A DNA stretch of 41,349 bases from Solirubrobacterales bacterium. Its GTDB lineage: Bacteria; Actinomycetota; Thermoleophilia; Solirubrobacterales; 70-9. Shown here one piece after another: positions 859-13,342 of this stretch. How positions within the stretch are numbered: position 1 is the first letter of the stretch; each line of letters starts with the position of its first letter. A program made the translations under genes and the position numbers. The stretch spans positions 1-41,349 of the forward strand of contig DAIRWC010000001.1 in the NCBI GenBank assembly GCA_036802505.1, in the 5' to 3' direction. The notes beneath the pieces are model-generated. The model did not search any database, was not told the origin of the DNA, and saw only the letters and a list, made by a program, of their open reading frames with translations.

Positions 859-1026
859 TCTGTCTCCTCGCTCATGGGTTCCTGGGGGTGAGAGCGGGCC
901 TCGCCACCGGCAAGACCGCCAGGGTCTAGATGGCGAGGCCCTACGCCGTGCCCTGGGGAGTGTGCCGCCCCCGTAGCTGTCCGGCGATTCCTCGGTCGGG
1001 GACCCTAGCTGATCTCGCGGTCGGAC

Positions 1027-1052
1027 GTGTACACAAGGCCGCTCTTTAGGGT
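1027..1052 (+). promoter_or_regulatory. GTGTACAC-N12-TAGGGT promoter/operator motif, copy 1 (rightward)
   Basis: GTGTACAC at 1027-1034 and TAGGGT (TAnnnT-type -10) at 1047-1052, in the gene-free region between divergent genes. The same composite motif occurs at 12969-12990 and 15468-15490. Confidence 0.45.
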
Positions 1053-1310
1053 GATTCTTGTAGAGCAGGGGGGAGATATATAGATGGCGTGGGCGCCCGG
1101 GATCGCCCACTCCCCTCCCCCCCTGAATGTGCCGCCTGCGGTACGTGATCCGGGGTGGTTTCGTGGGTCCTCTCGATCATCGCTCGACCATCCCCACTCG
1201 CGAAGCCAAACAAGGGTTGACATTCCCGGGGTTATGTCCGATCAACCTCGCGCGCATTTGCTGCGTCGCGCGTAGAGCCAACGCGCCATCCGCTGACTGT
1301 CGAGCCAGTG

Positions 1311-1342
1311 AGGATGCGGACTCGTACATGTGTCCACATCCT
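1311..1342. repeat. Inverted repeat AGGATGCGGAC / GTCCACATCCT (10 of 11 bp) around a GTAC-centred 10-nt spacer
   Basis: Read directly: arms at 1311-1321 and 1332-1342 with spacer TCGTACATGT. It lies in the long untranslated region upstream of the 1421 gene. Confidence 0.5.
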
Positions 1343-1360
1343 GCCCTTGCCCTGCTACGT

Positions 1361-1390
1361 GTACTCGCGATGGTGTACCGTCGGCGGTAC
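1361..1390 (+). promoter_or_regulatory. GTAC-N10-GTAC-N8-GTAC cluster upstream of the first rightward gene
   Basis: GTAC at 1361, 1375 and 1387. The last pair (GTACCGTCGGCGGTACA) has the same GTACC-N7-GTACA form as the conserved leaders at 2510-2526 and 3140-3156. Confidence 0.35.
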
Positions 1391-1420
1391 ATGAACGCAG
1401 CACCTATCGAAGGGGGAAGC

Positions 1421-1960
1421 ATGAGTGAGAAGCGCTGGGTCTTCTGCGACGACGCAGAGGAAGCAATCGAGGACGGGATTACGCGGCAGACGATGGGCTA
1501 CTACGTGGCCGACGCCGACAAGGACGCTCGCGCCGCCTTCTGGATTCGCGGTGACGCTGAGCGCTACGTCCGCGAGCGCAACCGGGAACGAGAGGCGGGA
1601 TTCACTCTGTCGATCGGACTCGGCAACGCGGCCATGAGCAGCGCTGAGGATGTCGGCCAAGCTCTAGAGGAACTCGCGCAGTCAATCGCTGACGGCGAAC
1701 GTGACGGCAACGTGTTCGATGAGAACGGCAACGTCGTCGGGCATTGGTCGCTCAACGAGCCGGAGCCGCCGACCGAAGGCAGGAAGGCCCGCAACGTCGA
1801 GGAGGGGCAGCGGATCAAGGTAGGCGACACGTTCGAGCGTGTTGAGGCTGTCGGGTCGATGCCGGGTGGCCGGGTGGCAATCATCACCGAGCCCTACAGC
1901 GAGGGGACGCTCTACGAGGGCGACGCCGTGGTTCACGTGCTGGTTGAGGAGGAGGTCTAG
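1421..1960 (+). CDS. Hypothetical acidic protein (179 aa)
   Basis: ATG at 1421 preceded by GAAGGGGGA. High GC3. The upstream part of track ORF 1127..1960 does not look coding. Confidence 0.75.
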   Translation: MSEKRWVFCDDAEEAIEDGITRQTMGYYVADADKDARAAFWIRGDAERYVRERNREREAGFTLSIGLGNAAMSSAEDVGQALEELAQSIADGERDGNVFDENGNVVGHWSLNEPEPPTEGRKARNVEEGQRIKVGDTFERVEAVGSMPGGRVAIITEPYSEGTLYEGDAVVHVLVEEEV

Positions 1961-2464
1961 ATGCGCGTCCCCGGAACCGACCTACAGACCGGCGACCGCG
2001 TCTACGTCGAAGGCGACTGGCTGGCCCTTGAGGACGTAGGGCCGTCTGTCGAGGCTGAGGACGTGATCGAGGCGTTCTGCGGCACTCGCGCTATCTACAT
2101 CGCGCCCGATGGCTTCTACGACCGCCGGGCGAGGTCGGGCGAGTATGTCGCCGTCGACCTAGACGAGAACAACCGCAAGCCCGCTGGGACGTTCGGCTGG
2201 GGCGTCTGTCGCCACGGCCACGGCTTGCAGGCCGACCTGCCGCGCCTCTCTGAGCACGAGGCCCGCTACCTGGCCGCTCTGCTCACTGAGGAGGCGTCTA
2301 GGTGGCGGCCAGCGTCCAACGGGGCGGGGGCTCGTCACTGGTTCCTGATCCGCGACGCGCAGGCCAGCGTGTCGGCTCGCTACCACCGGAGCGCCAAGGA
2401 TCAGCTAGTCCGCTACGCCTCGCACGAGGGGGCAGAGCGGGCGGCTGATCGCCTCAACGCCTAG
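1961..2464 (+). CDS. Hypothetical protein (167 aa)
   Basis: ATG directly follows the stop of the previous gene (TAGATG). High GC3. TAG stop at 2462-2464. Confidence 0.75.
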   Translation: MRVPGTDLQTGDRVYVEGDWLALEDVGPSVEAEDVIEAFCGTRAIYIAPDGFYDRRARSGEYVAVDLDENNRKPAGTFGWGVCRHGHGLQADLPRLSEHEARYLAALLTEEASRWRPASNGAGARHWFLIRDAQASVSARYHRSAKDQLVRYASHEGAERAADRLNA

Positions 2465-2507
2465 CCGCGCTTGGAGCACCGCGCCGGTTCGACTCCGGCG
2501 CGCGGCC
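2464..2507 (+). ncRNA. tRNA-like minihelix 1 (acceptor stem + T-arm; no D or anticodon arm)
   Basis: Parts: GCCGCGC (2464-2470), 12-nt linker TTGGAGCACCGC, T-stem GCCGG, loop TTCGACT, CCGGC, then GCGCGGC (2500-2506) pairing 7/7 with the 5' strand, then unpaired C2507. The GG-TTCGAnn-CC T-loop signature is present. Nucleotide +1 is the G of the upstream TAG stop. Confidence 0.6.
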
Positions 2508-2543
2508 TTGTACCAATCGCAGTACAACCGAAGGGAACACCGA
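2508..2543 (+). promoter_or_regulatory. Conserved leader, copy 1 (TGTACCAATCGCAGTACAACCGAAGGGAACACCGA + ATG)
   Basis: Near-identical to 3138-3174. Contains GTAC-N8-GTAC and the SD GAAGGGAA 8 nt before ATG 2544. Confidence 0.6.
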
Positions 2544-2822
2544 ATGAGCACCGACACGAGCACCGCAACGCTGGCGACGCCGGCCAACATGCGCCGCTTC
2601 GCCGAGCTTCACCCCGGCCGGGACCTGCCCGGCGGCGGCCACGTTGAGGGGCGGCGCTGCTTCGCCTTCTCACCGGGGACCGGCGAGCAGTTCAGCGCGA
2701 GCGCCGGGGACTACTGGACGCAGCCCGACGATCAGCCGCTCACCGACTCAGAGGGCGAACCGATGGTTCTGGCCGTCTCCGAGACGCGCTACTTCGACGC
2801 GCTCAACGGGGAGGCGGTCTAG
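2544..2822 (+). CDS. Hypothetical protein (92 aa)
   Basis: ATG 2544 after GAAGGGAA. The track start at 2508 (TTG) lies in the conserved leader. High GC3. Confidence 0.7.
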   Translation: MSTDTSTATLATPANMRRFAELHPGRDLPGGGHVEGRRCFAFSPGTGEQFSASAGDYWTQPDDQPLTDSEGEPMVLAVSETRYFDALNGEAV

Positions 2823-3092
2823 GTGGACGCGCTCGACGAGCTGGCCCGAGAGATCGGCTACAGCGACGGGAGCGACGACGACGAGACGGGCGGCGTCGAT
2901 GCCCTGATCGACTACAAGAACGCGCTAGAGGAGCGCTGCCGCTTCGCCGAACGGACGCTAGGGGAGATCGGGCATTGCCTGCCGCGCTCCGAAGATTGGG
3001 ACGGCGGGCCTGGTCGCTTGGAGGACATCGCGGCCATCCTTGACCGTGGCCCGGTCGAGCGGCCCAACACGAGCGAGTACGAACGTCACTAG
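2823..3092 (+). CDS. Hypothetical acidic protein (89 aa)
   Basis: GTG immediately after the preceding TAG. High GC3. TAG stop at 3090-3092. Confidence 0.7.
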   Translation: MDALDELAREIGYSDGSDDDETGGVDALIDYKNALEERCRFAERTLGEIGHCLPRSEDWDGGPGRLEDIAAILDRGPVERPNTSEYERH

Positions 3093-3137
3093 GGCGGCCT
3101 GGCGGCCACGGCGCGGGTTCGATCCCCGCGCCGCCCC
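3092..3137 (+). ncRNA. tRNA-like minihelix 2 (acceptor stem + T-arm; no D or anticodon arm)
   Basis: Parts: GGGCGGC (3092-3098), 14-nt linker CTGGCGGCCACGGC, T-stem GCGGG, loop TTCGATC, CCCGC, then GCCGCCC (3130-3136) pairing 7/7, then unpaired C3137. Compensatory changes relative to copy 1. It again starts on the G of a TAG stop. Confidence 0.6.
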
Positions 3138-3174
3138 ATGTACCAACCGAAGTACAACCCGAAGGGAAGACCAA
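3138..3174 (+). promoter_or_regulatory. Conserved leader, copy 2 (TGTACCAACCGAAGTACAACCCGAAGGGAAGACCAA + ATG)
   Basis: Aligns with 2508-2543 with few substitutions and one 1-nt indel. The SD GAAGGGAA lies before ATG 3175. Confidence 0.6.
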
Positions 3175-3408
3175 ATGCCACGCACCGCCAATGAGGAGCG
3201 CGCGGAGAAGGCTTACCGCGCCGTCCTCAACTACGAATCCGATTCGAGCGTCGAGGAGTGCATCTCCGATCTGCTCGGCGACCTGCGCCACCTGTGCGAC
3301 GAGTCGGGCTATGACTTCGCCGAGCGCGACGAGGTCGGCCAGCGCAACTACATCGCCGAGCTTGGCGAGGCAAGGCTCGACGCGGCCGAAGGGCAAGGCC
3401 GCCGATGA
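3175..3408 (+). CDS. Hypothetical small acidic protein (77 aa)
   Basis: ATG 3175 follows the conserved leader and SD. The track ORF 3040..3408 extension covers the minihelix and is rejected. Confidence 0.7.
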   Translation: MPRTANEERAEKAYRAVLNYESDSSVEECISDLLGDLRHLCDESGYDFAERDEVGQRNYIAELGEARLDAAEGQGRR

Positions 3409-3590
3409 ACGGGCCGGATATGACGACGCCGGAGGGCCGCGCGGGACTCACCGCGCGGCTCAAGCGGCGCAACCCAACGCAAGAGATTGGAGACTCTCTG
3501 ATCGAGCAGGGGTGGACCGCGAAGCCCGACCCCGACGATCCGCGCTCGACGATCTTTGCGCCGCCGCCGAGCGAGAGGCGGCAACCGTGA
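3405..3590 (+). CDS. Hypothetical protein (61 aa)
   Basis: ATGA start/stop overlap at 3405-3408. Mostly G/C-ending codons. Confidence 0.5.
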   Translation: MNGPDMTTPEGRAGLTARLKRRNPTQEIGDSLIEQGWTAKPDPDDPRSTIFAPPPSERRQP

Positions 3591-3820
3591 GGAAGGCCGA
3601 GCAGGTCCGCCTAGACATCGGGGCGACCGCATCGGAAATCGCAGAACACGAGGAGCACGGCGCCGAGCTGCGAAGGCGGCTCGGCTCGGCTCTTGCCGAG
3701 GCCCGCGACCATCCCGAGCTGACGCTCGAAGCGGCCCGGCAGATCCCGAAAACGCCGATCCCACGACAGACGGCCAACCGCCTGATCCGCGAGGCCGGTA
3801 CTGCCAACGCCGCGCCCTGA
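3587..3820 (+). CDS. Small helix-turn-helix-like protein (77 aa)
   Basis: GTGA overlap at 3587-3590. The C-terminal LTLEAARQIPKTPIPRQTANRLIREAG resembles an HTH. An alternative upstream GTG at 3512 cannot be excluded. Confidence 0.55.
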   Translation: MRKAEQVRLDIGATASEIAEHEEHGAELRRRLGSALAEARDHPELTLEAARQIPKTPIPRQTANRLIREAGTANAAP

Positions 3821-3835
3821 TTTTTGGCGCGGCGT
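3807..3835 (+). terminator. 10-bp perfect GC-rich hairpin at the end of the rightward operon (no U-tract)
   Basis: ACGCCGCGCC (3807-3816) pairs with GGCGCGGCGT (3826-3835). The 9-nt loop CTGATTTTT contains the TGA stop. Flanked by 12-bp direct repeats. Confidence 0.4.
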
Positions 3836-4000
3836 CCTGCCGCTACGTGAAGCCGGTACTGCCGGCGTCCGGCCCGTCTCATTCCGGCGGGCCGGAATAC
3901 GTCGCGGAGGACCTCCGGCGACCGTCGCGGCCTGCAGGTCCCGTCGCGCGGGCCCGCCGTCGCGTCGCGCACCGGCGCCTCGACGAGACACGACACGAGT

Positions 4001-4074
4001 GGCGGCCCCAGGGGTCGAACCTGGCCCTCCGGGGGTCAACCCCCCGACGACTTTCTCTACCGTCCCGACCGCCG
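4001..4074 (-). tRNA. tRNA-like gene, non-canonical (possible pseudo-tRNA or Gln(TTG)-like with G33)
   Basis: The reverse strand reads GGCGGTC GG GACGGTAGAGAAAGTCGT CGGGG GGTTGAC CCCCG GAGGG CCAGG TTCGACC CCTGG GGCCGCC A. It has a 7-bp acceptor stem (one G-U), a canonical T-arm and a 5-nt variable loop. It lacks U8, U33 and the D-loop GG. CCA is not encoded. Confidence 0.5.
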
Positions 4075-4363
4075 TGGGGAGTCCTCCACCGGGCGCCGTG
4101 TGATCCCTCCGTCCGCCCCAGCATGGCGGTCCCCCAGGATCGTGCGCGCATCGACTCGGTCACTTGGTCCGCTGGCTCCCGCGAGCCGCGGCCCGGCGAA
4201 GATTCCCGCCGCCTTGAGTGTCGCCAGGGAACGACGACGGCGGGCAATGAGGAGGAGATCCTCGTGCCTCGCGGCCCAAGGGCACCGACTATCGCTAGTG
4301 GCTCTTGGCTTGACCGCCCAATATGGGGGGCGGTCTGCGCGCGGGCTCGGCCAGTATAGCCCG

Positions 4364-4783
4364 TCAGGACGCCGAAAAACGCTTCTCGGCAAGAGATTCC
4401 AGACCACGTTCCTCAACAAACTCCTCGACGTCGTCGGGCAGCGCCAGGCGCGGGACGACGAGAGCCTTGGCGCGGCCGTCCTGATGGTCGAAGGCGACGT
4501 GGTGAACGAGGCACCCTGGGCCGGCGTTTCGCGGGTCCCATTCGAGGTAGACGAAGTCTTCGGGGGTGAGGTCGCGGAGAGGGCCGTGGGTGCGGATTTC
4601 CTGCTTGCCGAAGAAGTGGAACGCCTGCCACTTGCGATCAACGGTGCAGGGCCGCTCGTAGGGGTCGAAGCTGGCGAGCCAACAAGCGGGCTTGCCGTCG
4701 ATGAAGGGGACCGGGCAGCGACGCACCATCGCCGCCCGCCAGAACTCGTGTGCGAGCCCTGGGGGCGGCTTGGCGATCGTCAA
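4364..4783 (-). CDS. Hypothetical protein (139 aa from TTG 4783; 121 aa if ATG 4729)
   Basis: High GC3 from about 4783 downward. The track extension to 4861 has poor GC3. Last gene of the leftward early operon. No family recognised. Confidence 0.6.
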   Translation of the reverse strand: MTIAKPPPGLAHEFWRAAMVRRCPVPFIDGKPACWLASFDPYERPCTVDRKWQAFHFFGKQEIRTHGPLRDLTPEDFVYLEWDPRNAGPGCLVHHVAFDHQDGRAKALVVPRLALPDDVEEFVEERGLESLAEKRFSAS

Positions 4784-5450: not shown

Positions 5451-5969
5451 CTAGAACGGGATGTCGTCTTCGCCGTCACCGCCGGCAGCGGCGCCCTCGA
5501 AGTCGGACGTGTCGGCCGGGACGTCGCTACCGCCGCCCGTCCACGCCTCGCCCTCGCCGAGCAGCTCGTTGACGTAGGTGTTGCGGTACTTCTTCTCGCC
5601 CTTGTCGGTGGTGGTGACGCGGATCGACACCCGCGCCTCGCCGCACAGCGGCTCGAGCGCCTCGGGGAGATCGGCGAGGGCGACGCCTTGGAGCCCGAGC
5701 ATCTCCAAGTAGCCCTTCGTCCAGGCGATCCGGTCGGGGTCCTCGAGCTCGTGCCAAACGCTCGGCGCCGAGAGGCCCATGTGCTCGCCCTCGGTGACGA
5801 TGATTTCGGTTATCAGCTTGAGCGGGCCGCCGCCCTCCTTTTCCCAGAAATCGAAGCGCTCGATCTGGCCTTCGTAGTCGCCATCGGGGACGTTACCCCC
5901 CGACGTCTTCGCCTCGGCATCGTCGTAGACGTCCTGCATCTCGGCGAGTCGCTCTGCGTAATCCGTCAT
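5451..5969 (-). CDS. SSB-like / recombination accessory protein with canonical SSB C-terminal tip (GEDDIPF)
   Basis: Track ORF 5451..6569 trimmed to ATG 5969 (ATGA overlap with the upstream stop). Gly-rich acidic tail ending in DDIPF. Sits directly downstream of the Sak4-like ATPase. The N-terminal domain is not a textbook OB-fold SSB sequence. Confidence 0.55.
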   Translation of the reverse strand: MTDYAERLAEMQDVYDDAEAKTSGGNVPDGDYEGQIERFDFWEKEGGGPLKLITEIIVTEGEHMGLSAPSVWHELEDPDRIAWTKGYLEMLGLQGVALADLPEALEPLCGEARVSIRVTTTDKGEKKYRNTYVNELLGEGEAWTGGGSDVPADTSDFEGAAAGGDGEDDIPF

Positions 5970-6754
5970 TTGGTCTTCTTCTCCTGTTTCGCGGGTTTGG
6001 GCTTCTCGGGCTCGGGCTCGGGCGCGGCCGGCGGCGCCAGCGACTTCGCCATCTCTTTGCGGAGGATCACCGCGTCGAGCGGAAGCGGATCGGGGAGGGG
6101 AGCAGAGTCCTCGGGGACGCGACCGCCGGCCTCGTGGTGCTCGGCGCCCTGGGTCCGCAGGACCCGCTTGCTCTTCTCCTCCTCCCCCTCCCACTCGGCA
6201 AGGAAGATGAAGTCGACGAAGCCGACGAGGAACTTGCGGGCCTGGCCGGAGAGGGTCGGCTGCGTGACCGTCTTCGAGCCGACCTTCTTCTTGACCTCGC
6301 GATCCTCGGCGTGGGAGATGAACCACACCCCGAGCCCCAGGTTGGCGAGCTTGCCGATCCGCAGTCGGAACTCGTCGGCGACGGCCGACCACCCCTTGCC
6401 GTATTCGGCGTCGCTCGGGTGCTTGATCCCGAGCTGGGCGCAGACGTAGTCGGAGCAGAAGCGGTAGAGCTCGTCGACCGTGTCGACGGCGACCACGTCG
6501 AAGCGCCGGTCCTTGCCCTTCTTCGCGTCTTCGGCGATTTCCTGGCCGACCGCAAGAAACTCCTCCCAATTGGAGACGGGCGCCTGGTAGACCTCGAGCG
6601 AGCCAAGGCCCGGTTCGGTCGCGATGAAGAGCGTCTTGTCGGGGTTGATCTTCGATGCGAACGTGCTCTTCCCGATCTTCGGCGGCCCGTAGAGGAGGGC
6701 CTTGATCCGAGCGGGGGAGAGCGACGGCGCAGACTTCTCGGTGGGGAGCGTCAT
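5966..6754 (-). CDS. RecA-superfamily ATPase, Sak4-like (AAA_24-type)
   Basis: Walker A LLYGPPKIGKST. Has VVAVDTVD and WFISHA motifs and a Lys/Pro/Glu-rich tail. ATGA overlap at 6751-6754. Synteny with the exonuclease and SSB-like genes. Confidence 0.7.
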   Translation of the reverse strand: MTLPTEKSAPSLSPARIKALLYGPPKIGKSTFASKINPDKTLFIATEPGLGSLEVYQAPVSNWEEFLAVGQEIAEDAKKGKDRRFDVVAVDTVDELYRFCSDYVCAQLGIKHPSDAEYGKGWSAVADEFRLRIGKLANLGLGVWFISHAEDREVKKKVGSKTVTQPTLSGQARKFLVGFVDFIFLAEWEGEEEKSKRVLRTQGAEHHEAGGRVPEDSAPLPDPLPLDAVILRKEMAKSLAPPAAPEPEPEKPKPAKQEKKTK

Positions 6755-7794
6755 GCGTTGTCCTCCTCGTTTTTGGTTGCTGGGGAAACGTCGGTGCCGG
6801 GGAACTTCTTCAAGATCGCGGCCGTGACCTCGCCATCGGTGTAGGGCTTCGCGGCCGAGCGATCGCTCCGCTGCTTCTCCTTGAAGAGCGAGGGCGCGTC
6901 GGGGTCGCCGACGCAGAGCGGAAGGAAGGGGCAGCCGCCGTAGTCGTGGCAATGGCTCGAGTTGCGCGGGTAGATCCGCGCCCTCGACGCCTCGCGCCGC
7001 TGAGCGGCCCATTGCCAGAGCTCGGCCTCGATCCGCACGAGGTCGGTGGCGCTGCGGGTGATCGGCTCCTCGACGAGATAGAACTCGGGCCGCTCGGCGT
7101 AGTCGGCTTCGACCCGCTCGGCGTACTCTTCGACCGTCTCCGTTTTCTTCTGCTTGATCGACGGCTTGCGGGTGAAGCGATAGGAGACGTCGGTGATCTC
7201 GTGGCCGGTCGCCCTCCAGATCCCGTAGCACTCGAGGGCGAGCTGCCGGTCGAGCTTCAACCGCTTGATCGCCACCGCCTGCATCTGCCCTACGAGCTTG
7301 TCCTCGATCAGCATCCAGTCGTCGGTGAGCCCGTCCGCGTAGCCCTCGAGGTCGAAGGTGCGCGAGTAGGCCCCGGTGTCGGGGTTGCGGAGCCGGACCC
7401 GATAGCCGAACTCGCGCCGCTCGTGCCGGCCGTAAGCGGCGAGGTAGGCCCTGGCCGCCCCGGTGACGATCGCGCAGTCGACGGTGAGCCGGTCCTGATC
7501 CTCTTGGGTGAGGATCGTCGCTTCCGCGGAGAGCTTGGCGACGCCGTCCGCGGGGTCGCCCGTCTCGGTCGCCTTGGCGAAGGCCCCGCCGAGACGAAGG
7601 CTGGCCGCCCTGGCGATCGGTTCGATCTTGTCGACGTAGCTGTAGGCGTAGCGCTGATGGCAGGCAAGCTGGGTGTTGAGCGACGAGTGCGAGAGCGAAG
7701 CGCGGCCTTCGCGGTCCTCTTGGTCGACGAGGTTCTGCTTGTCGGACGGGATCAGCTCGGGCAATCCCTCGAGCACGGTCAGCGCAACGGTCAT
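6751..7794 (-). CDS. PD-(D/E)XK exonuclease, Cas4/RecB-like with C-terminal Cys cluster
   Basis: Contains the IEDKLV motif (D/E-x-K) and a C-terminal CHDYGGCPFLPLC cluster typical of Cas4/AddB-type Fe-S nucleases. 347 aa. Confidence 0.65.
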   Translation of the reverse strand: MTVALTVLEGLPELIPSDKQNLVDQEDREGRASLSHSSLNTQLACHQRYAYSYVDKIEPIARAASLRLGGAFAKATETGDPADGVAKLSAEATILTQEDQDRLTVDCAIVTGAARAYLAAYGRHERREFGYRVRLRNPDTGAYSRTFDLEGYADGLTDDWMLIEDKLVGQMQAVAIKRLKLDRQLALECYGIWRATGHEITDVSYRFTRKPSIKQKKTETVEEYAERVEADYAERPEFYLVEEPITRSATDLVRIEAELWQWAAQRREASRARIYPRNSSHCHDYGGCPFLPLCVGDPDAPSLFKEKQRSDRSAAKPYTDGEVTAAILKKFPGTDVSPATKNEEDNA

Positions 7795-8553: not shown

Positions 8554-9104
8554 TCGGAATCGACCGCCGACCACATCGCATCCTCGCCAAGCTGGTTGAG
8601 CAGCTTGCGAATGAACCGGATCTTCCCCGGCTTGTAGTGGCCGGCGGCTTCGAGCTTCTCGAGCAGCTTGTCGATCTCGTAGAGGGGCGACATCACGACC
8701 CGCTCCTTTTTCTCTCGAGCCCGGCGGGTGATTTCTTCCTGGGCCTCCCTCGAGATCGCCTCGGGCTCGCCGGAGAGGGCCGAGCTCGGCGACGACGTGT
8801 AGCCGCTCTCCTCTCCGGCCTCGGCGATCGCGGCGGGGTCGCCGACGTCGTGCGGCACCCCTTCCTCGTCGAAGCTGTCCCGAATCTTCTTGTAGTCGGT
8901 GCTGTGCGGGCTGGCCCGGAGGAGCCGAGCGGGATCGTCAGATGCCGGCGGCGAGTCGTCGATCACGACGCGACGCTTCCTCGAGAAGGGCTTGCCGCCG
9001 GTCCCTGGGATCAGGGTGATCGGGGATCTCCGCTTCCGCTTCGGTGGCTTCTCCCCCTCCCTCGCGGCTTCCCGTTTTCGCTGGGCCTCCGACTTCTCGA
9101 GCAT
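8550..9104 (-). CDS. Hypothetical protein (184 aa), basic N-terminus
   Basis: Track ORF 8550..9860 trimmed to ATG 9104 (TGATG overlap with the dnaB stop). The upstream extension is Arg-rich shadow sequence. Confidence 0.65.
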   Translation of the reverse strand: MLEKSEAQRKREAAREGEKPPKRKRRSPITLIPGTGGKPFSRKRRVVIDDSPPASDDPARLLRASPHSTDYKKIRDSFDEEGVPHDVGDPAAIAEAGEESGYTSSPSSALSGEPEAISREAQEEITRRAREKKERVVMSPLYEIDKLLEKLEAAGHYKPGKIRFIRKLLNQLGEDAMWSAVDSE

Positions 9105-10516
9105 CAGTCCTCCCTCACTTGGTCGTGGCCTGGCGGCGGTACATGCGTCTCGCCGACCTCGAGCTCCGACTGCTCGCGCTTGGGCGGCGGCGTCAGTCGG
9201 TAGAAGCGGTGGGTGCGGCTGTTTTGGTAGATCGGCAACGACTTCTTGAGGCCGTTGCGGACCTTGTCGAAGTAGAGCTCGCCCTCGGGCAGCACGTTCG
9301 CGTCTTCGTCCTGGCTGCGGTGCAGGAAGAGCACGGCGTCGGCGAGGGTTTCGAGGGAGCCCGAGCCCTTGAGATCGAGGCAGAGCGGCCGCGGCTTGAC
9401 TCCCTTCGGGTCGCGCAGCCGGTTCCGGTTCAAGTGGGCGACGGCGATCACGTGGCACTCGGCCCTCGAGGCGAGCCGCGCCAGCCGCCGGGTGATCGCC
9501 GCCGCGAGCTCGGTTTTCTCGAAGCCGGGGATTTCGGTGATCGGGTCGATCGCGACGACGTCGTAATCGCCGTACATGGCCCGCTCGGCGATTTTGTCGG
9601 CGCTCCAATCGAACGCCTCGAAGTAGTCGAAGGGCAGGGCTTGGTGTTTGTTGGCCGCCTCGAGCAGCCGCTTCATATCCTTCAGCTCGAGGCGGTTGCG
9701 CATAATCTTTTCGAGCGGCACCGCCGTCTCCGACGTCAACCACCTGGCCGCCCTCTCCTCGCGCCCCATCTCCGTCGCGAAGAGGCCGCATTTGTAGCCC
9801 TGCGCGGAGAAGGCGGCGAGCATCTGATCGAGCACCCAGCTCTTCCCCATCCCCGTCCACCCGGCCAGCACCGACATCTGCTTGCGGCGGAAGCCGCCGA
9901 TCACGCAGTCGTTGAGATCGGGCCAGGGCAACTCGAAGACGTCGCCCTCTTCCTGGGTGTCGAAGTAGTCGAAGAGCTCGGAGAGGATCGCCTCGCCCGA
10001 GGTCACTTCGGAGTCGACGGTGAAGTCAGCGGTGGCGAGCTCGAGCCCGTCGCGGATCATCTCGGCCTGCTTCTCGGGGTCGTCCTCGAAGACGCCTTGC
10101 TGAATGAGCTGGCCGCCGTGGAGCTTCGCCCGGAGCTGCGCGTTGAGCAGGACGATCTCGGCGTAGTGGCCCGCGTTGCCGGCGGCGGGGACTTTGGCGG
10201 CGAGCTCGGAGACGTAGTGCTTGCCACCGGCCTCGTCGATCTTCTGGCGCCGGGTCAGCTCCTCGTTGACCATCAGCTCGTCGGCGACGCCGTTGCGATC
10301 GGCGACGGAGCAGATCGCCTCGAAGATCAGCCGGTGCTTGTCGAGGTAGAAGTGCGCGGCGACCAGGCCGACATCGCCGCGGACCCGTTTGATCGCCGGC
10401 TGCGCGACGAGCATGGCGCCGATCACCGCCTCCTCGGCCTCGATGTTCTGCGGCGGGACCTGCACCGGGGCGGCCGCGGGCGGCGGCCCTCCGACGCTTC
10501 GGGTCACGCGGCCCAT
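9104..10516 (-). CDS. dnaB: Replicative DNA helicase, DnaB family
   Basis: N-terminal PQNIEAEEAVIGAML signature, Walker A GWTGMGKS and a VVAIDPIT Walker-B-like motif. 470 aa from ATG 10516. Confidence 0.85.
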   Translation of the reverse strand: MGRVTRSVGGPPPAAAPVQVPPQNIEAEEAVIGAMLVAQPAIKRVRGDVGLVAAHFYLDKHRLIFEAICSVADRNGVADELMVNEELTRRQKIDEAGGKHYVSELAAKVPAAGNAGHYAEIVLLNAQLRAKLHGGQLIQQGVFEDDPEKQAEMIRDGLELATADFTVDSEVTSGEAILSELFDYFDTQEEGDVFELPWPDLNDCVIGGFRRKQMSVLAGWTGMGKSWVLDQMLAAFSAQGYKCGLFATEMGREERAARWLTSETAVPLEKIMRNRLELKDMKRLLEAANKHQALPFDYFEAFDWSADKIAERAMYGDYDVVAIDPITEIPGFEKTELAAAITRRLARLASRAECHVIAVAHLNRNRLRDPKGVKPRPLCLDLKGSGSLETLADAVLFLHRSQDEDANVLPEGELYFDKVRNGLKKSLPIYQNSRTHRFYRLTPPPKREQSELEVGETHVPPPGHDQVRED

Positions 10517-11286
10517 CAGTCGAGCCCCTGCTCGCGGCGGATGCGCTCGGCCTCGGCGTTGACGTCGAAGCGCTTGGTGGCTTTCTTCGCCCGGTCGCGG
10601 GCCAGTTCGATCGACTGCTCGAAGATCGCGGCGTTGCCGTAGATGATCTTCGGCGTCGGCGGGCCGGTCCACCAATTCTCGCCCGCGAAGACGGCCTCGA
10701 CGATCTTGCCGTGCTGCTCCGCAGTCAGCTTCGGCCGTTCGCGGATGCGGCCGACGATCGGGGTCAGGTGCGGCTCGGTCGTGAGCTCGGTGCCGGCGGA
10801 ACTATTGAACAGCGAAACAACAGCAGCAGCGAGATCGAACTCGTCGTCGGAAACGACCTTTCCCCCCACCTTTTTTCTAGAAGGGGTTTTAGGGGTTTTC
10901 TCTGTAGAACTCTCTGCCTTACTAGACAAGCCGCCATTTTGGCGGGATGAAGCCGCCACTTTGTCGTGTTTCAAGTACGGCAATTTGTCGTAGTTCACGG
11001 AGTAGTGGGCGCGTCGATTCGTGCCCTCCGGCTGGTCGATCAAGAGGAGCTCGAGGTCCCGCAATTTGTCGATCACACGTTGGAAGGTGCGAAGGCTGAG
11101 CCAGGGAAACTCCTCCACCCATTTCTCCTGCGTGTTGTAGACCCACGGCTCTTCGCCGGCTCGGATCTTGTGCAGCGACCAGTAGTGGATTTGCTGCAAG
11201 ACGATCGACTCGTTGATGCCGATCTCGGCGGCCAGGGTGGGGAGCGCTTGGAGCGGGGGCTCGGCGATCAGGAGCGGAGACTTCAA
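10516..11286 (-). CDS. Replication initiator / replisome organiser (N-terminal winged-helix-like, C-terminal conserved phage C-terminus-like domain)
   Basis: TTG start in a TTGA overlap. The N-terminus has LAAEIGINESIVLQQIHYW. The C-terminus reads LFNSSAGTEL...IVGRIRERPKLTAEQHGKIVEAVF...WW...IIYGNAAIFEQ. Lies upstream of dnaB. Confidence 0.6.
   Translation of the reverse strand: MKSPLLIAEPPLQALPTLAAEIGINESIVLQQIHYWSLHKIRAGEEPWVYNTQEKWVEEFPWLSLRTFQRVIDKLRDLELLLIDQPEGTNRRAHYSVNYDKLPYLKHDKVAASSRQNGGLSSKAESSTEKTPKTPSRKKVGGKVVSDDEFDLAAAVVSLFNSSAGTELTTEPHLTPIVGRIRERPKLTAEQHGKIVEAVFAGENWWTGPPTPKIIYGNAAIFEQSIELARDRAKKATKRFDVNAEAERIRREQGLD
10882..10963. repeat. Iteron-like repeats in an AT-rich patch (candidate phage origin)
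   Basis: Tandem AGGGGTTTT x2 (10882-10899). AAGCCGCCAYTTTG x2 (10928-10941 and 10950-10963, 22-bp period). Palindrome CCGCCATTTTGGCGG. The locally lowest-GC stretch of the early region, inside the linker-coding part of the initiator gene. Confidence 0.5.
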
Positions 11287-12306: not shown

Positions 12307-12912
12307 CTAACCCTCCACTCGAAGTAGAGAGTCAGCCAACTCGAAGGTCGGGTTGTGCTCGAGGCCACCCGCGTCCTTCATGTAGATCATCGTCGTCGTC
12401 GGCGAGGCGTGGCCGACCGCGAGCTGCACCTGATGCAGCGGCGCCCCGTCCTGCAAGGCGAGGGTGACGAAGCTGCGCCGTAGGGAGTGGGGCGAGAGGT
12501 CGGGGTTGACGCCGATCCAGTCAGCTAGGGCCTTGACGCGATCCCAGGCCGTCTGCCGGGAGATCCCGGCCAAGGGCTCGAGCACCGCCCCGGAGGCGTG
12601 TAGACGCGGCAGGAGCGGCCCCTGCTCGCGTCCTGCGAGGAACTCGTCGACCGCCTCGCAGACGACCGGGGCCAGCGGCACGACGCCGCGCTTGTTGCCC
12701 TTGCGCACCACGTGGAGGGTGCGGTGCCCGCCGGAGCTGCCGAGATCCTCGACGTCGGCCTTCACCGCCTCGGAGACGCGCAGGCCGTTGAGGCCGAGAA
12801 GGGCGACGAGCAAGAAGTCGCGTGGGTGGGTGTCGCGGGCGGCGAGGAGCAGCTTGCGCAGTTCCCCTCGATCGGCCCAGGGGGTCGTTAGGTCGGGTCG
12901 GCTAGAAGCCAT
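12307..12912 (-). CDS. int: Tyrosine recombinase/integrase, catalytic domain only (201 aa)
   Basis: ATG 12912 after GAAGGAGA. Catalytic set present: R (LRVSEA), K (VRKGNK), HxxR (HSLRRS), H (GHAS) and Y (MIYM). No room for an N-terminal core- or arm-binding domain. Confidence 0.8.
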   Translation of the reverse strand: MASSRPDLTTPWADRGELRKLLLAARDTHPRDFLLVALLGLNGLRVSEAVKADVEDLGSSGGHRTLHVVRKGNKRGVVPLAPVVCEAVDEFLAGREQGPLLPRLHASGAVLEPLAGISRQTAWDRVKALADWIGVNPDLSPHSLRRSFVTLALQDGAPLHQVQLAVGHASPTTTMIYMKDAGGLEHNPTFELADSLLRVEG

Positions 12913-12968
12913 CTGGATCTCCTTCGGTTGCCCCGGTTCCTGACGCCGGGATCGGGGCAGCCTACCAT

Positions 12969-12990
12969 GTGTACACGTATTTGCTAGGGT
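12969..12990 (+). promoter_or_regulatory. GTGTACAC-N8-TAGGGT promoter/operator motif, copy 2 (rightward, apparently leaderless)
   Basis: GTGTACAC at 12969-12976 and TAGGGT at 12985-12990. The GTG start at 12998 lies only 7 nt after the -10-like hexamer. Confidence 0.5.
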
Positions 12991-12997
12991 CCCCGCC

Positions 12998-13342
12998 GTG
13001 GAACCCAGGGACTTCCGCCCAACTGCCGAGCAGCTCCGGGTCTTCGAGCAGGGCGGCCCGCACAAGATCTCGTGGGTAGCCGGTCAACGCGCCGGTCGAC
13101 GTCGAGCGACCGAGATGGCGATCGTCGCCCAGGCGGCGAACCCCGAGGAGGCCGAGCTCGCGCTCGAGGATCTCCACACCAAGGGCATCGCCTGCCTCAC
13201 CGACGAGGGCAAGCGGGTCGAGCCGAAAGGCAACCGTCGATTCACCGTCGTCAAGTTCGACGAGGAGCGCCGGACGACCCCCTGCCCCGACTGCGACGGC
13301 GCCGGCTGCGAACACTGTGGCGACGGCCGGAGGCGGTCGTAG
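12998..13342 (+). CDS. Hypothetical protein with DnaJ-type CxxCxGxG zinc-finger pair (114 aa)
   Basis: GTG 12998. C-terminal CPDCDGAGCEHCGDG. High GC3 except for a short central stretch. Confidence 0.6.
   Translation: MEPRDFRPTAEQLRVFEQGGPHKISWVAGQRAGRRRATEMAIVAQAANPEEAELALEDLHTKGIACLTDEGKRVEPKGNRRFTVVKFDEERRTTPCPDCDGAGCEHCGDGRRRS

What the first reader, a model, noticed from the sequence alone, without database searches (positions are those of the whole stretch)
2464..3174. Two covarying tRNA-like minihelices fused to stop codons and followed by a conserved leader
Two elements of 44 and 46 nt (2464-2507 and 3092-3137) share one architecture:
- a 7-bp acceptor-like stem;
- a 12-14 nt linker of the form YTGG..CAC(C/G)GC;
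- a 5-bp stem with a 7-nt loop carrying the T-loop signature GG-TTCGAnn-CC;
- the 3' acceptor strand, then one unpaired C.

The D and anticodon arms are absent. The two copies differ at four acceptor positions and one T-stem position, and every difference is compensated so that pairing is kept. That pattern argues for selection on RNA structure.

In both copies nucleotide +1 is the G of the upstream ORF's TAG stop. In both, the discriminator is followed at once by a near-identical ~36-nt leader with an SD and ATG.

Inference: acceptor plus T-arm minihelices are minimal RNase P, RNase Z and CCA-adding substrates, so these could be processing sites that cut the polycistronic early mRNA. RNase P cleavage would fall inside the stop codon (UA|G), as in mitochondrial tRNA punctuation. 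The linker GG could mimic G18G19 and form a tRNA elbow. Alternatives are tRNA-gene-derived att cores or protein-binding decoys. I know of no described phage system of this form.
Basis: partly seen in the sequence, partly recalled or inferred. Interest (0 to 1): 0.85.

Follow-up and report, generated by a model that had tools for sequence, protein, structure and literature searches.

The report
Stop-codon-fused mini-tRNAs between phage genes
The two elements are real, structure-selected, anticodon-less "mini-tRNAs" lying between phage genes. They belong to a large, apparently undescribed family found across very different phages, which most likely lets the host's tRNA-processing enzymes cut long phage messages into single-gene pieces.

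Summary
E1 (2464-2507) and E2 (3092-3137) each start at the G of a TAG stop. Each folds into a 12-bp acceptor/T-arm stack with a perfect T loop and is followed by a near-identical hairpin, SD and ATG leader.

They are not a local oddity. Scans of IMG/VR and covariance models found 115 distinct copies in 73 viral contigs with G+C of 0.31-0.70. A model built only from low-GC copies still finds E1 (41 bits) and E2 (23.5 bits).

Family features:
- The stems covary strongly (98% of cells paired against 58% when shuffled).
- The stack is 12-13 bp in 81% of copies.
- The linker CUUGGAGC holds a covarying 2-bp stem that closes a UGG triloop.
- An ORF-ending stop has its third base at nucleotide +1 in 45% of copies. 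The figure is 1.2% for 499 true phage tRNAs and 1.1% at random positions.
- Flanking genes are unrelated small ORFs, and all copies in a contig share one strand.

The closest analogues are plant-mitochondrial t-elements and tRNA punctuation. Processing by RNase P and RNase Z is the best explanation (about 0.5) but is untested, and the stop-codon fusion remains unexplained. The att-remnant, terminator and pseudo-tRNA readings are rejected. I found no prior description in Rfam 15 or in the paper library.

The parts
1961..2464 (+). Upstream ORF (167 aa, unknown function). Its TAG stop at 2462-2464 supplies nucleotide +1 of E1.
   Evidence: GC3 0.84; orthologue in L003
2464..2507 (+). Minihelix E1. 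5' strand 2464-2469 pairs with 2501-2506. Mini stem C2470-G2476 and U2471-A2475 closes UGG at 2472-2474. T stem 2482-2487 pairs with 2495-2500. T loop UUCGACU is at 2488-2494. N73 is C2507. The stack is 12 bp.
   Evidence: 62.5 bits; 41.1 bits with the independent model
2508..2543 (+). Leader 1. Hairpin UUGUAC/GUACAA at 2508-2527 starts 1 nt after N73. SD AAGGGA is at 2531-2536, then ATG at 2544.
2544..2822 (+). Downstream ORF (92 aa). Its homologue in L090 is also preceded by a minihelix, one with a different stem sequence.
2823..3092 (+). ORF (89 aa). Its TAG stop at 3090-3092 supplies nucleotide +1 of E2.
3092..3137 (+). Minihelix E2. 5' strand 3092-3097 pairs with 3131-3136. Mini stem C3098-G3105 and C3099-G3104 closes UGGC at 3100-3103. 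T stem 3112-3117 pairs with 3125-3130. T loop UUCGAUC is at 3118-3124. N73 is C3137. The stack is 12 bp.
   Evidence: 48.4 bits; 23.5 bits
3138..3174 (+). Leader 2. Hairpin UGUAC/GUACA is at 3139-3156. SD AAGGGA is at 3162-3167, then ATG at 3175.
3175..3408 (+). Downstream ORF (77 aa). It matches phrog_3963 and gives a weak MazG-like hit.
1374..1423 (+). Leader of the first gene of the same + strand operon. It has the palindrome TGTACC-N6-GGTACA (1374-1391), ATGAACGCAG, an SD and ATG at 1421. This is the same kind of leader but with no minihelix in front.

Best explanation
E1 and E2 are members of a widespread phage family of anticodon-less mini-tRNAs that act in the mRNA as punctuation between cistrons.

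Shown:
- Each folds into a 12-13-bp coaxial acceptor/T-arm stack. It is capped by a canonical T loop, and a tiny stem-loop presents an invariant GG.
- It sits in the sense strand, directly on the stop codon of one small gene and 30-50 nt before the start of the next.

Inferred:
- This shape is the part of tRNA read by the universal tRNA-processing enzymes. Host RNase P would cut at the 5' edge. RNase Z, or an equivalent 3' activity, would cut after N73.
- The cuts would separate the cistrons and release a ~45-nt tRNA-like RNA that can receive CCA.
- The hairpin that starts 1-4 nt after N73 would then be the 5'-terminal stem-loop of the downstream mRNA and protect it from 5'-end-dependent decay. 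The first gene of the window's operon carries the same leader without a minihelix, as expected if the minihelix exists to recreate that 5' end internally.
- Fusion to the stop codon means a terminating ribosome must melt the 5' strand, so folding and cutting would be gated by translation of the upstream gene.
For: - Structure under selection. On 78 distinct rows, 97.8% of cells pair against 58.1% when shuffled. The covariation score is 0.92 against 0.18, and slid controls reach at most 0.20. The mini stem covaries: C-G/U-A and U-A/A-U/C-G.
- tRNA-like geometry. The stack is 12 bp in 44 and 13 bp in 49 of 115 copies. G53, U54, U55, C56 and C61 are invariant or nearly so.
- The models are specific. 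R1 gives no hit with E below 0.001 on the many true tRNAs of the first-batch loci.
- The window copies are members by an independent model.
- Position and orientation fit an mRNA signal. A stop lies within -12..+1 in 88% of copies against 12.7% at random positions. The start lies 30-50 nt downstream. Strands are never mixed in the 24 multi-copy loci. In L241, seven consecutive small genes are each followed by a copy.
- Flanking genes are unrelated: 112 downstream proteins fall into 77 clusters. The signal is therefore general, not gene-specific.
- The range covers G+C 0.31-0.70 and includes haloarchaeal genomes. That argues for a universal host factor rather than a phage-specific protein.
- The downstream hairpin is enriched. 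MFE is -4 kcal/mol or lower in 53% of copies against 38% of controls (p = 0.009), and it starts 1-4 nt after N73 in 54 of 61.
- Precedent: plant-mitochondrial t-elements with the same GGTTCRANYCC arm are cut by RNase P and RNase Z to form mRNA ends, some inside reading frames (PMC1920247).
Against: - There are no transcript-end or enzymatic data of any kind.
- True phage tRNA genes in the same contigs keep the whole stop codon upstream of +1. Offset 0 occurs in 1.2% of them against 45% of minihelices. An RNase P cut at -1/+1 would leave the upstream mRNA ending in UA with no stop codon, which looks costly unless it is gated, repaired by A-tailing, or intended.
- No 3' CCA is encoded, and N-1 is A rather than the U preferred by E. 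coli RNase P (the preference is from my own knowledge).
- The hairpin after N73 is present in only about half of the copies.
- MFE z-scores of the isolated elements are modest, -1.8 and -2.4.
Confidence: 0.5

Rival explanations
1. The elements are passive structural insulators. The minihelix and the following hairpin are not cut by tRNA enzymes. They serve as stable intercistronic structures that block 3'-5' exonucleases, hinder Rho loading or isolate the folding of neighbouring cistrons. Alternatively only a 3' cut occurs, so the minihelix stays as a protective 3' cap that holds the intact stop codon.
For: - The helices are very stable, -26 to -31 kcal/mol.
- The intercistronic position is strict.
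- This reading avoids the stop-less mRNA problem raised by the tRNA control.
Against: - A generic barrier needs none of the following: an invariant T loop, an invariant UGG presented by a covarying mini stem, or a stack fixed at 12-13 bp.
- There is no U tract, and the scan found no terminator-like site at either element.
Confidence: 0.17
2. The elements yield a trans-acting tRNA-elbow decoy. The excised or embedded mini-tRNA would sequester a host or defence factor that recognises the acceptor/T-arm/elbow half of tRNA. Candidates are acceptor-end-modifying toxins, SmpB (the shape resembles the tmRNA tRNA-like domain) or tRNA-modifying enzymes. This would help the phage. It could coexist with processing.
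For: - There are several copies per genome, in regions of small accessory genes.
- The tRNA half that is kept is the one bound by many tRNA-binding proteins.
- The T arm gives weak sub-threshold matches to the tmRNA model.
Against: - A decoy has no need to sit on a stop codon or at a fixed distance from the next start.
- Acceptor sequences are unconstrained. All pair types occur at every position, G3:U70 is not conserved and no CCA is encoded.
- No partner gene is conserved nearby.
Confidence: 0.15
3. The elements are module-boundary repeats that act at the DNA level. The conserved core and leader would mainly provide homology for recombination that shuffles downstream genes between phages, like the PeSL cassettes of T4-type phages (named from my own knowledge).
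For: - The window and L003/L006/L022/L073/L140 share the gene upstream of E1 and the whole element and leader, but carry unrelated downstream genes. Similarity ends at the SD and start.
- In L022 a copy sits inside the orthologue of window ORF 3405-3590 with no stop.
Against: - Compensatory changes that keep pairing are not expected for a homology patch.
- Stem sequences differ completely between contigs, so only about 20 nt are shared.
- Strict sense orientation and the stop and start spacing point to RNA. Mosaic breakpoints are more likely a consequence of the repeats.
Confidence: 0.08
4. The elements are relics: att-site cores copied from a host tRNA gene, decaying phage tRNA pseudogenes, or intrinsic terminators.
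For: - ARAGORN calls a 'tRNA-Ile' at 2412-2507.
- A degenerate tRNA-like segment lies nearby on the other strand at 3999-4073.
Against: - The ARAGORN call is a 96-nt artefact that runs through the ORF and borrows E1's T arm. Rfam finds no tRNA there.
- Att cores keep only the 3' part of a tRNA, whereas here the 5' strand is present and covaries.
- The same precise architecture recurs in 115 distinct copies under selection.
- The integrase is at 12307-13065.
- There is no U tract.
- Only 5 of 120 pattern-matching genome loci carry the motif.
Confidence: 0.03

Closest known systems
Plant-mitochondrial t-elements (Forner et al. 2007, PMC1920247)
   Same: - They are tRNA-like folds with a conserved GGTTCRANYCC T arm and an acceptor stem.
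- They are embedded in mRNA flanks rather than acting as tRNAs.
- They direct RNase P and RNase Z cuts that form mRNA 3' and 5' ends. Excised t-elements receive non-templated C/CA.
- Some cuts leave mRNAs without a stop codon.
   Different: - t-elements are organellar and few per genome. They are idiosyncratic degenerate cloverleaves of about 70 nt with no shared linker motif.
- The phage elements are a single compact 44-48-nt design with a conserved CUUGGAGC mini stem-loop. They have a systematic fusion to the stop codon and a following hairpin and SD.
- Processing of the phage elements is not demonstrated.
Mitochondrial tRNA punctuation (named from my own knowledge: Ojala, Montoya and Attardi 1981)
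   Same: - tRNA-shaped units lie directly between coding regions of a polycistronic RNA.
- The stop codon abuts or overlaps the 5' end of the tRNA, leaving U or UA upstream of the cut.
   Different: - There the units are functional tRNAs, and the stop is completed by polyadenylation.
- Here the units have no anticodon arm and the stop is complete before any cut.
- No A-tailing step is known for these hosts.
mascRNA/menRNA at the 3' ends of MALAT1 and MENbeta, and phage P1/P7 C4 and P4 CI RNAs matured by RNase P (own knowledge; mascRNA paper listed)
   Same: They are non-tRNA transcripts that carry a tRNA-like module used only as an RNase P (and RNase Z) processing signal.
   Different: - mascRNA is a full cloverleaf mimic in eukaryotic lncRNA. 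Rfam's mascRNA family gave no match here at E up to 10.
- The P1 and P4 RNAs are single antisense regulators, not repeated intercistronic units.
tRNA-like domain of tmRNA
   Same: It has an acceptor stem, a T arm and a short GG-containing D-loop analogue, with no anticodon arm.
   Different: - The tmRNA domain is closed by the long tmRNA body with its tag ORF. It has G3:U70 and an encoded or added CCA, and it is a single gene.
- The elements here have unconstrained acceptor sequences and only sub-threshold T-arm matches to RF00023.
Candidate structured RNAs catalogued in IMG/VR (PMC10690425)
   Same: That survey used the same data source and reports unnamed 'tRNA or tRNA-like' candidates among 10,006 motifs.
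   Different: In the text I read there is no description of an anticodon-less, stop-fused intercistronic family and no proposed function. I could not check whether this motif is among their models.

Membership tests
Canonical tRNA (Rfam RF00005 / cloverleaf) | Four-armed cloverleaf with a D arm and an anticodon arm | tested here: not met
   Only 11-13 nt lie between the acceptor 5' strand and the T stem. Rfam gives no tRNA match at gathering score. At E up to 10 there is only a 19-bit tRNA-Sec alignment that borrows ORF sequence.
Canonical tRNA (Rfam RF00005 / cloverleaf) | Acceptor/T-arm stack of 12 bp with a GGTTCGAnnCC T loop | tested here: met
t-element-like / tRNA-punctuation processing signals | tRNA-like fold with a conserved T arm, embedded in the sense strand of an mRNA between or beside coding regions | tested here: met
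t-element-like / tRNA-punctuation processing signals | Transcript ends coincide with the element's 5' and 3' edges, and the element is cut by RNase P and RNase Z | not testable with these tools
   No transcript or enzymatic data are available.
Stop-fused phage mini-tRNA family (defined here) | Significant match to a covariance model built without the window or its relatives | tested here: met
   With R2, E1 scores 41.1 bits (E 6e-11) and E2 scores 23.5 bits (E 4e-5). These are the only significant hits in the window.
Stop-fused phage mini-tRNA family (defined here) | Linker C-U-[UGG]-A-G-C with a covarying 2-bp stem | tested here: met
   E1 has the consensus CUUGGAGC. E2 has the compensated variant CCUGGCGG.
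Stop-fused phage mini-tRNA family (defined here) | The third base of an ORF-ending stop codon is nucleotide +1, and a hairpin, SD and start follow within 30-50 nt | tested here: met
   for the window. for the family.
tmRNA tRNA-like domain | G3:U70 alanine identity pair, 3' CCA, and connection to a tag-encoding body | tested here: not met
   Position 3:70 is C-G in E1 and G-C in E2. No CCA follows N73. There is no tmRNA call.
Intrinsic terminator | GC-rich hairpin followed by a U tract | tested here: not met
   The terminator scan of 900-4500 reports no site at either element. The tails are CUUGUACC and CAUGUACC.
attP / tRNA-derived integration core | Only the 3' part of a host tRNA is kept, next to an integrase, with an identical host segment | tested here: not met
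   A covarying 5' strand is present. The integrase is at 12307-13065. The identical-host-segment feature could not be tested because the host is unknown.

The most novel reading that the evidence does not exclude
Phages of many bacterial phyla, and apparently haloarchaeal viruses, share a dedicated mRNA punctuation device. It is a 45-nt anticodon-less mini-tRNA whose first nucleotide is the last base of the upstream stop codon.
- The terminating ribosome and the host tRNA-processing machinery would compete for the same RNA.
- Cleavage would be gated by translation, or would deliberately produce stop-less upstream messages while creating a hairpin-protected 5' end for the next gene.
- The released elbow-bearing mini-tRNA might also act as a decoy.

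This would be a bacterial and viral counterpart of mitochondrial tRNA punctuation, built from non-tRNAs.
Probability: 0.3. Interest if true: 0.9.

Novelty: new variant of a known kind. Interest (0 to 1): 0.8.

Why it matters
- **Phage gene expression.** If the elements are processing signals, phage operons would be cut into monocistronic units by the host's own tRNA enzymes. This layer of phage gene expression is currently not annotated at all. The elements are invisible to tRNA finders and to Rfam.
- **A natural minimal substrate.** The family would give a natural, highly diverse set of minimal substrates for RNase P, RNase Z and the CCA-adding enzyme: a 12-13-bp stack plus an elbow.
- **Parallels with organelles.** It would make testable the idea that tRNA punctuation and translation-coupled RNA processing exist outside organelles.
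- **Practical use.** The two covariance models allow immediate annotation of these sites in viral metagenomes. The elements mark gene-cassette boundaries in the variable regions of phage genomes that are rich in small ORFs.

Tried and rejected
1. **Alternative fold (outer 4 bp, small hairpin, 8-bp T hairpin).**
   - It is the MFE for E2 and is iso-energetic for many copies.
   - In the window lineage the last 3 nt of the linker repeat the last 3 nt of the 5' strand.
   - Family-wide counts reject it. Pair 24-46 fails in 19 of 41 sequences and pair 25-45 fails in 8 of 41.
2. **GenBank phages.** Megablast and blastn with the region and with three family members found nothing useful. The short T-arm hits in Gordonia and Xanthomonas phages were ordinary unannotated tRNAs.
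3. **Rfam.** There were no matches at gathering score. Only chance-level matches appeared at E up to 10.
4. **Protein families of the flanking genes.** Searches gave only unknown-function PHROGs and a weak MazG-like hit.
5. **Promoter and terminator scan.** It found nothing at the elements.
6. **Genome scan (GTDB species genomes).** Most pattern matches were true tRNAs with long variable arms, such as acidobacterial tRNA-Tyr, or reverse-strand tRNAs, or chance.
7. **Longest-ORF heuristic for stop assignment.** It was misled by spurious ORFs in high-GC DNA. I replaced it with a nearest-stop test that has controls.
8. **Not done.**
   - The host of the window phage was not identified.
Full report
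**1.

Reading the sequence gives the two elements:
- E1, 2464-2507: GCCGCGC-UUGGAGCACCGC-GCCGG-UUCGACU-CCGGC-GCGCGGC-C.
- E2, 3092-3137: GGGCGGC-CUGGCGGCCACGGC-GCGGG-UUCGAUC-CCCGC-GCCGCCC-C.

The four acceptor differences and the single T-stem difference between the copies are all compensated.

ORF 1961-2464 ends with TAG at 2462-2464 and ORF 2823-3092 ends with TAG at 3090-3092. Both ORFs have the high third-position G+C of real genes in this genome. Nucleotide +1 is therefore the G of the stop in both.

The leader motif TGTACCAANCGNAGTACAACC occurs only at 2509 and 3139, and no shuffle of 100 matched it. It is followed by AAGGGA and then ATG at 2544 and 3175. GGTTCGANNCC occurs four times against 0.83 expected.

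ARAGORN's 96-nt 'tRNA-Ile' at 2412-2507 is an artefact that reuses E1's T arm. Rfam 15 finds no family at gathering score, and only chance-level matches at E up to 10.

**2. The window**

The window is a roughly 41-kb high-GC (68%) phage genome. Identified genes:

| Gene | Coordinates | Strand |
|---|---|---|
| P22-like portal | 34363-36525 | - |
| DnaB helicase | 9104-10675 | - |
| AAA_24 ATPase | 5966-7231 | - |
| PD-(D/E)XK nuclease | 6751-7794 | - |
| Tyrosine integrase | 12307-13065 | - |

The elements lie in a short + strand operon of small genes of unknown function (1421-3820), which converges on the rest of the genome. No GenBank phage is similar at the DNA level.

**3. The elements belong to a large family**

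- A leader scan of IMG/VR found relatives L001 and L003. The E1 orthologue in L003 has a compensated G-C to C-G change in the T stem.
- Looser scans found more copies in high-GC contigs.
- The decisive scan used CTTGGAGC-N5-12-GGTTCGANNCC.
- Most of those hits are minihelices from contigs with G+C of 0.31-0.70. Their stems have wholly different but complementary sequences.

Covariance model R1, built from 41 distinct copies, gave:
- 98 hits in 100 of these loci;
- 28 hits in the earlier loci, none of them on the many true tRNAs present there.

In total there are 115 distinct copies in 73 sources, counting the window.

In the window R1 finds only E1 (62.5 bits) and E2 (48.4 bits). R1 contains the window copies, so I built R2 from 26 low-GC members only. 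R2 still finds E1 (41.1 bits, E 6e-11) and E2 (23.5 bits, E 4e-5) as the only significant hits in the window.

The same DNA pattern scanned over one genome per prokaryotic species also filled 120 rows. Only 5 of those loci carry R1 hits:
- a Solirubrobacterales MAG, where the copy sits next to a serine-recombinase gene;
- two haloarchaea;
- a spirochaete MAG, with two copies;
- an Acidimicrobiia MAG (L351), where the hit is probably a tRNA variable arm.

The remaining loci are true tRNAs with long variable arms, reverse-strand tRNAs or chance. The motif is therefore strongly virus-associated.

**4. Structure**

Pair counts on the independent MAFFT alignment A2:
- Acceptor pairs 1-6 all covary.
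- The nucleotide just 5' of the 5-bp T stem pairs with the partner of that 7th position in 39 of 41 sequences.
- The alternative fold (4 bp, hairpin, 8 bp) is the MFE of E2. It fails at 19 of 41 and at 8 of 41 sequences.

The best model is therefore 6 + 6 bp.

On 78 distinct rows of A3, 97.8% of cells are paired against 58.1% when shuffled. The covariation score is 0.92 against 0.18, and slid controls reach at most 0.20. This alignment was fitted to the model, so it leans toward it. The MAFFT-based A2 counts agree.

Further features:
- The linker holds a 2-bp stem, C-G (or U-A) and U-A (or A-U; C-G in E2), that closes an invariant UGG loop. Both pairs covary.
- A -1:73 pair is present in about two thirds of copies.
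- Counted greedily, the continuous stack is 12 bp in 44 and 13 bp in 49 of 115 copies. E1 and E2 are both 12 bp.
- No CCA is encoded. N73 is U in 61 copies and C in 32.

The RNA thus reproduces the acceptor/T-arm half of tRNA plus a candidate G18-G19 elbow contact, and nothing else.

**5. Context**

I took the nearest stop codon that closes an open frame of at least 30 codons.

| Set | Third base of stop is nucleotide +1 | Stop within -12..+1 |
|---|---|---|
| 115 minihelices | 52 (45%) | 88% |
| Random positions in the same loci | 1.1% | 12.7% |
| 499 distinct ARAGORN tRNAs in the same loci | 1.2% | 20% |

- True tRNAs peak at offsets -1 and -2, which keeps the whole stop upstream of +1.
- The effect survives collapsing the copies to 65 clusters and holds in both G+C classes.
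- The first pair follows the stop. It is A-U with TAA in AT-rich phages and G-C with TAG in GC-rich ones.
- The next start lies 30-50 nt after the element.
- About half of the copies have a small hairpin that begins 1-4 nt after N73. The share with MFE of -4 kcal/mol or lower is 53% against 38% of controls, p = 0.009. In the window these hairpins are UUGUAC/GUACAA and UGUAC/GUACA.
- Flanking proteins are small (median about 97 aa) and unrelated, forming 77 clusters on each side.
- Twenty-four loci are multi-copy and none mixes strands. In L241, seven successive small genes are each followed by a copy.

**6. Mechanism**

*Shown.* A tRNA-half mimic under strong structural selection sits in the sense strand exactly between cistrons. 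It occurs in viruses of very different hosts.

*Inferred.*
- Only the universal tRNA-processing machinery reads a 12-bp acceptor/T stack with a T loop and elbow in all these hosts. That machinery is RNase P, RNase Z and the CCA-adding enzyme (established knowledge of minihelix substrates).
- The elements are therefore most likely processing signals that cut the polycistronic mRNA.
- The hairpin after N73 would become a 5'-terminal stabiliser of the downstream mRNA. In the window, the first gene of the operon has the same palindromic leader (TGTACC-N6-GGTACA at 1374-1391, SD, ATG at 1421) without a minihelix. This fits a device that recreates that 5' end internally.
- Plant-mitochondrial t-elements are the documented precedent. 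They have the same T-arm motif, are cut by RNase P and RNase Z, receive non-templated C/CA, and sometimes leave stop-less mRNAs (PMC1920247).

*The weak point.* A cut at UA|G removes the stop codon, and true phage tRNAs avoid this arrangement. The possibilities are:
- a terminating ribosome melts the 5' strand, so folding and cutting are gated by upstream translation;
- the stop is restored by A-tailing;
- stop-less mRNA is intended;
- only the 3' side is cut.

None of these can be decided here. I put the processing model at about 0.5.

**7. Rivals**

| Rival | Confidence | Main objection |
|---|---|---|
| Passive structural insulator, or 3' cap only | 0.17 | Does not explain the invariant T loop, the UGG or the fixed stack length |
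| Trans-acting elbow decoy (could coexist with processing) | 0.15 | Does not explain the stop fusion or the spacing to the next start |
| DNA-level recombination boundary | 0.08 | Mosaic breakpoints do fall at the end of the leader and one copy sits inside a gene, but compensatory change argues for RNA |
| att remnant, pseudo-tRNA or terminator | 0.03 | Contradicted |

**8. Novelty**

- Rfam 15 has no matching family.
- Seven full-text searches found no description of such a phage element.
- A 2023 catalogue of 10,006 candidate structured RNAs in IMG/VR mentions unnamed tRNA-like candidates without function (PMC10690425). This motif may be among them.
- The paper library covers open-access papers only, so a prior description cannot be excluded.

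I rate the finding as a new variant of a known kind, namely tRNA-like processing signals. Its unusual and unexplained feature is the stop-codon fusion. Interest is 0.8.

Noticed in passing
window 3999-4073 (-): A degenerate tRNA-like sequence lies in the convergent intergenic region. ARAGORN calls it tRNA-Gln(ttg), and Rfam gives no hit even at E up to 10. It has a normal T arm and acceptor but an odd D loop without GG and a 5-6-bp GC anticodon-like stem. Only its 3' half is conserved in relatives (L001, L003, L015, L072). That pattern fits an attP core or tRNA fragment, although the integrase is 8 kb away.
   Followed up: partly
window 2412-2507 (+): ARAGORN reports a 96-nt 'tRNA-Ile(gat)'. 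It is an artefact that runs through the end of ORF 1961-2464 and borrows E1's T arm and 3' strand.
   Followed up: yes
window 1374-1423 (+): The first gene of the + strand operon has a perfect TGTACC-N6-GGTACA palindrome, then ATGAACGCAG, an SD and ATG at 1421. This is the same kind of leader as after E1 and E2 but with no minihelix. ATGAACGCAG also recurs in leaders and as the first codons of the gene after E1 in relatives. The palindrome could equally be an operator for a DNA-binding protein.
   Followed up: partly
window 2478-2482 and 3108-3111 (ends of the linkers): In the window lineage the last 3 nt of the linker repeat the last 3 nt of the 5' acceptor strand (CGC/CGC in E1, GGC/GGC in E2). 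This allows an alternative fold of 4 bp plus an 8-bp T hairpin. The wider family does not conserve it. A lineage-specific conformational switch is not excluded.
   Followed up: partly
L005, L011-L014, L017, L020, L021, L026, L027, L032, L033, L035, L036 (e.g. L011 2170-2260): A group of low-GC prophages from isolate genomes shares a 10-bp hairpin, ACGCUUAGGG-UUCGACU-CCCUGAGCGU. It is capped by a T-loop-like heptaloop and followed by a U run, TGTACCAAAAA, an SD and a start. It looks like a terminator with a tRNA T loop. R1 does not match the four of these loci that were tested (L005, L011, L020, L026).
   Followed up: no
L143 (-) 4127, 4008, 3905, 3662; also L061, L075, L095, L048, L105, L097: These loci carry a second kind of short tRNA-like minihelix with N73 = A and other linkers, for example TGGTCGAAGG. 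In L143 there are four tandem copies about 100-240 nt apart. They may be a sister class or decaying tRNAs.
   Followed up: no
L296 2764-2808 (-) (Haloarchaeobius amylolyticus); L364 6003-6047 (+) (Halolamina rubra): R1-positive minihelices occur in two haloarchaeal genomes. Their stop codons overlap the 5' end (TGA and TAA). In L296 a GC hairpin and a start follow the element. These are probably proviruses, which would extend the family to archaeal viruses.
   Followed up: partly
L022 (-) 30-77: A minihelix sits inside the orthologue of window ORF 3405-3590, after ...EGRAGLTARL. There is no stop codon in any frame through the element. It looks like a fresh recombination or insertion junction.
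   Followed up: partly
L241 (-) 422-2668: Seven R1 hits lie in about 2.3 kb on one strand. Each sits between consecutive small ORFs of 67-141 aa. This is the clearest 'gene, mini-tRNA, gene' punctuation array seen.
   Followed up: partly
L268, L272, L275, L283 and about 35 other genome loci: Acidobacterial tRNA-Tyr genes, and some tRNA-Leu genes, have variable arms reading CCGCTCCTTGGAGCTAC just before the T arm. They match the CTTGGAGC...GGTTCGA pattern, which is a source of false positives for any simple pattern search for the motif.
   Followed up: yes
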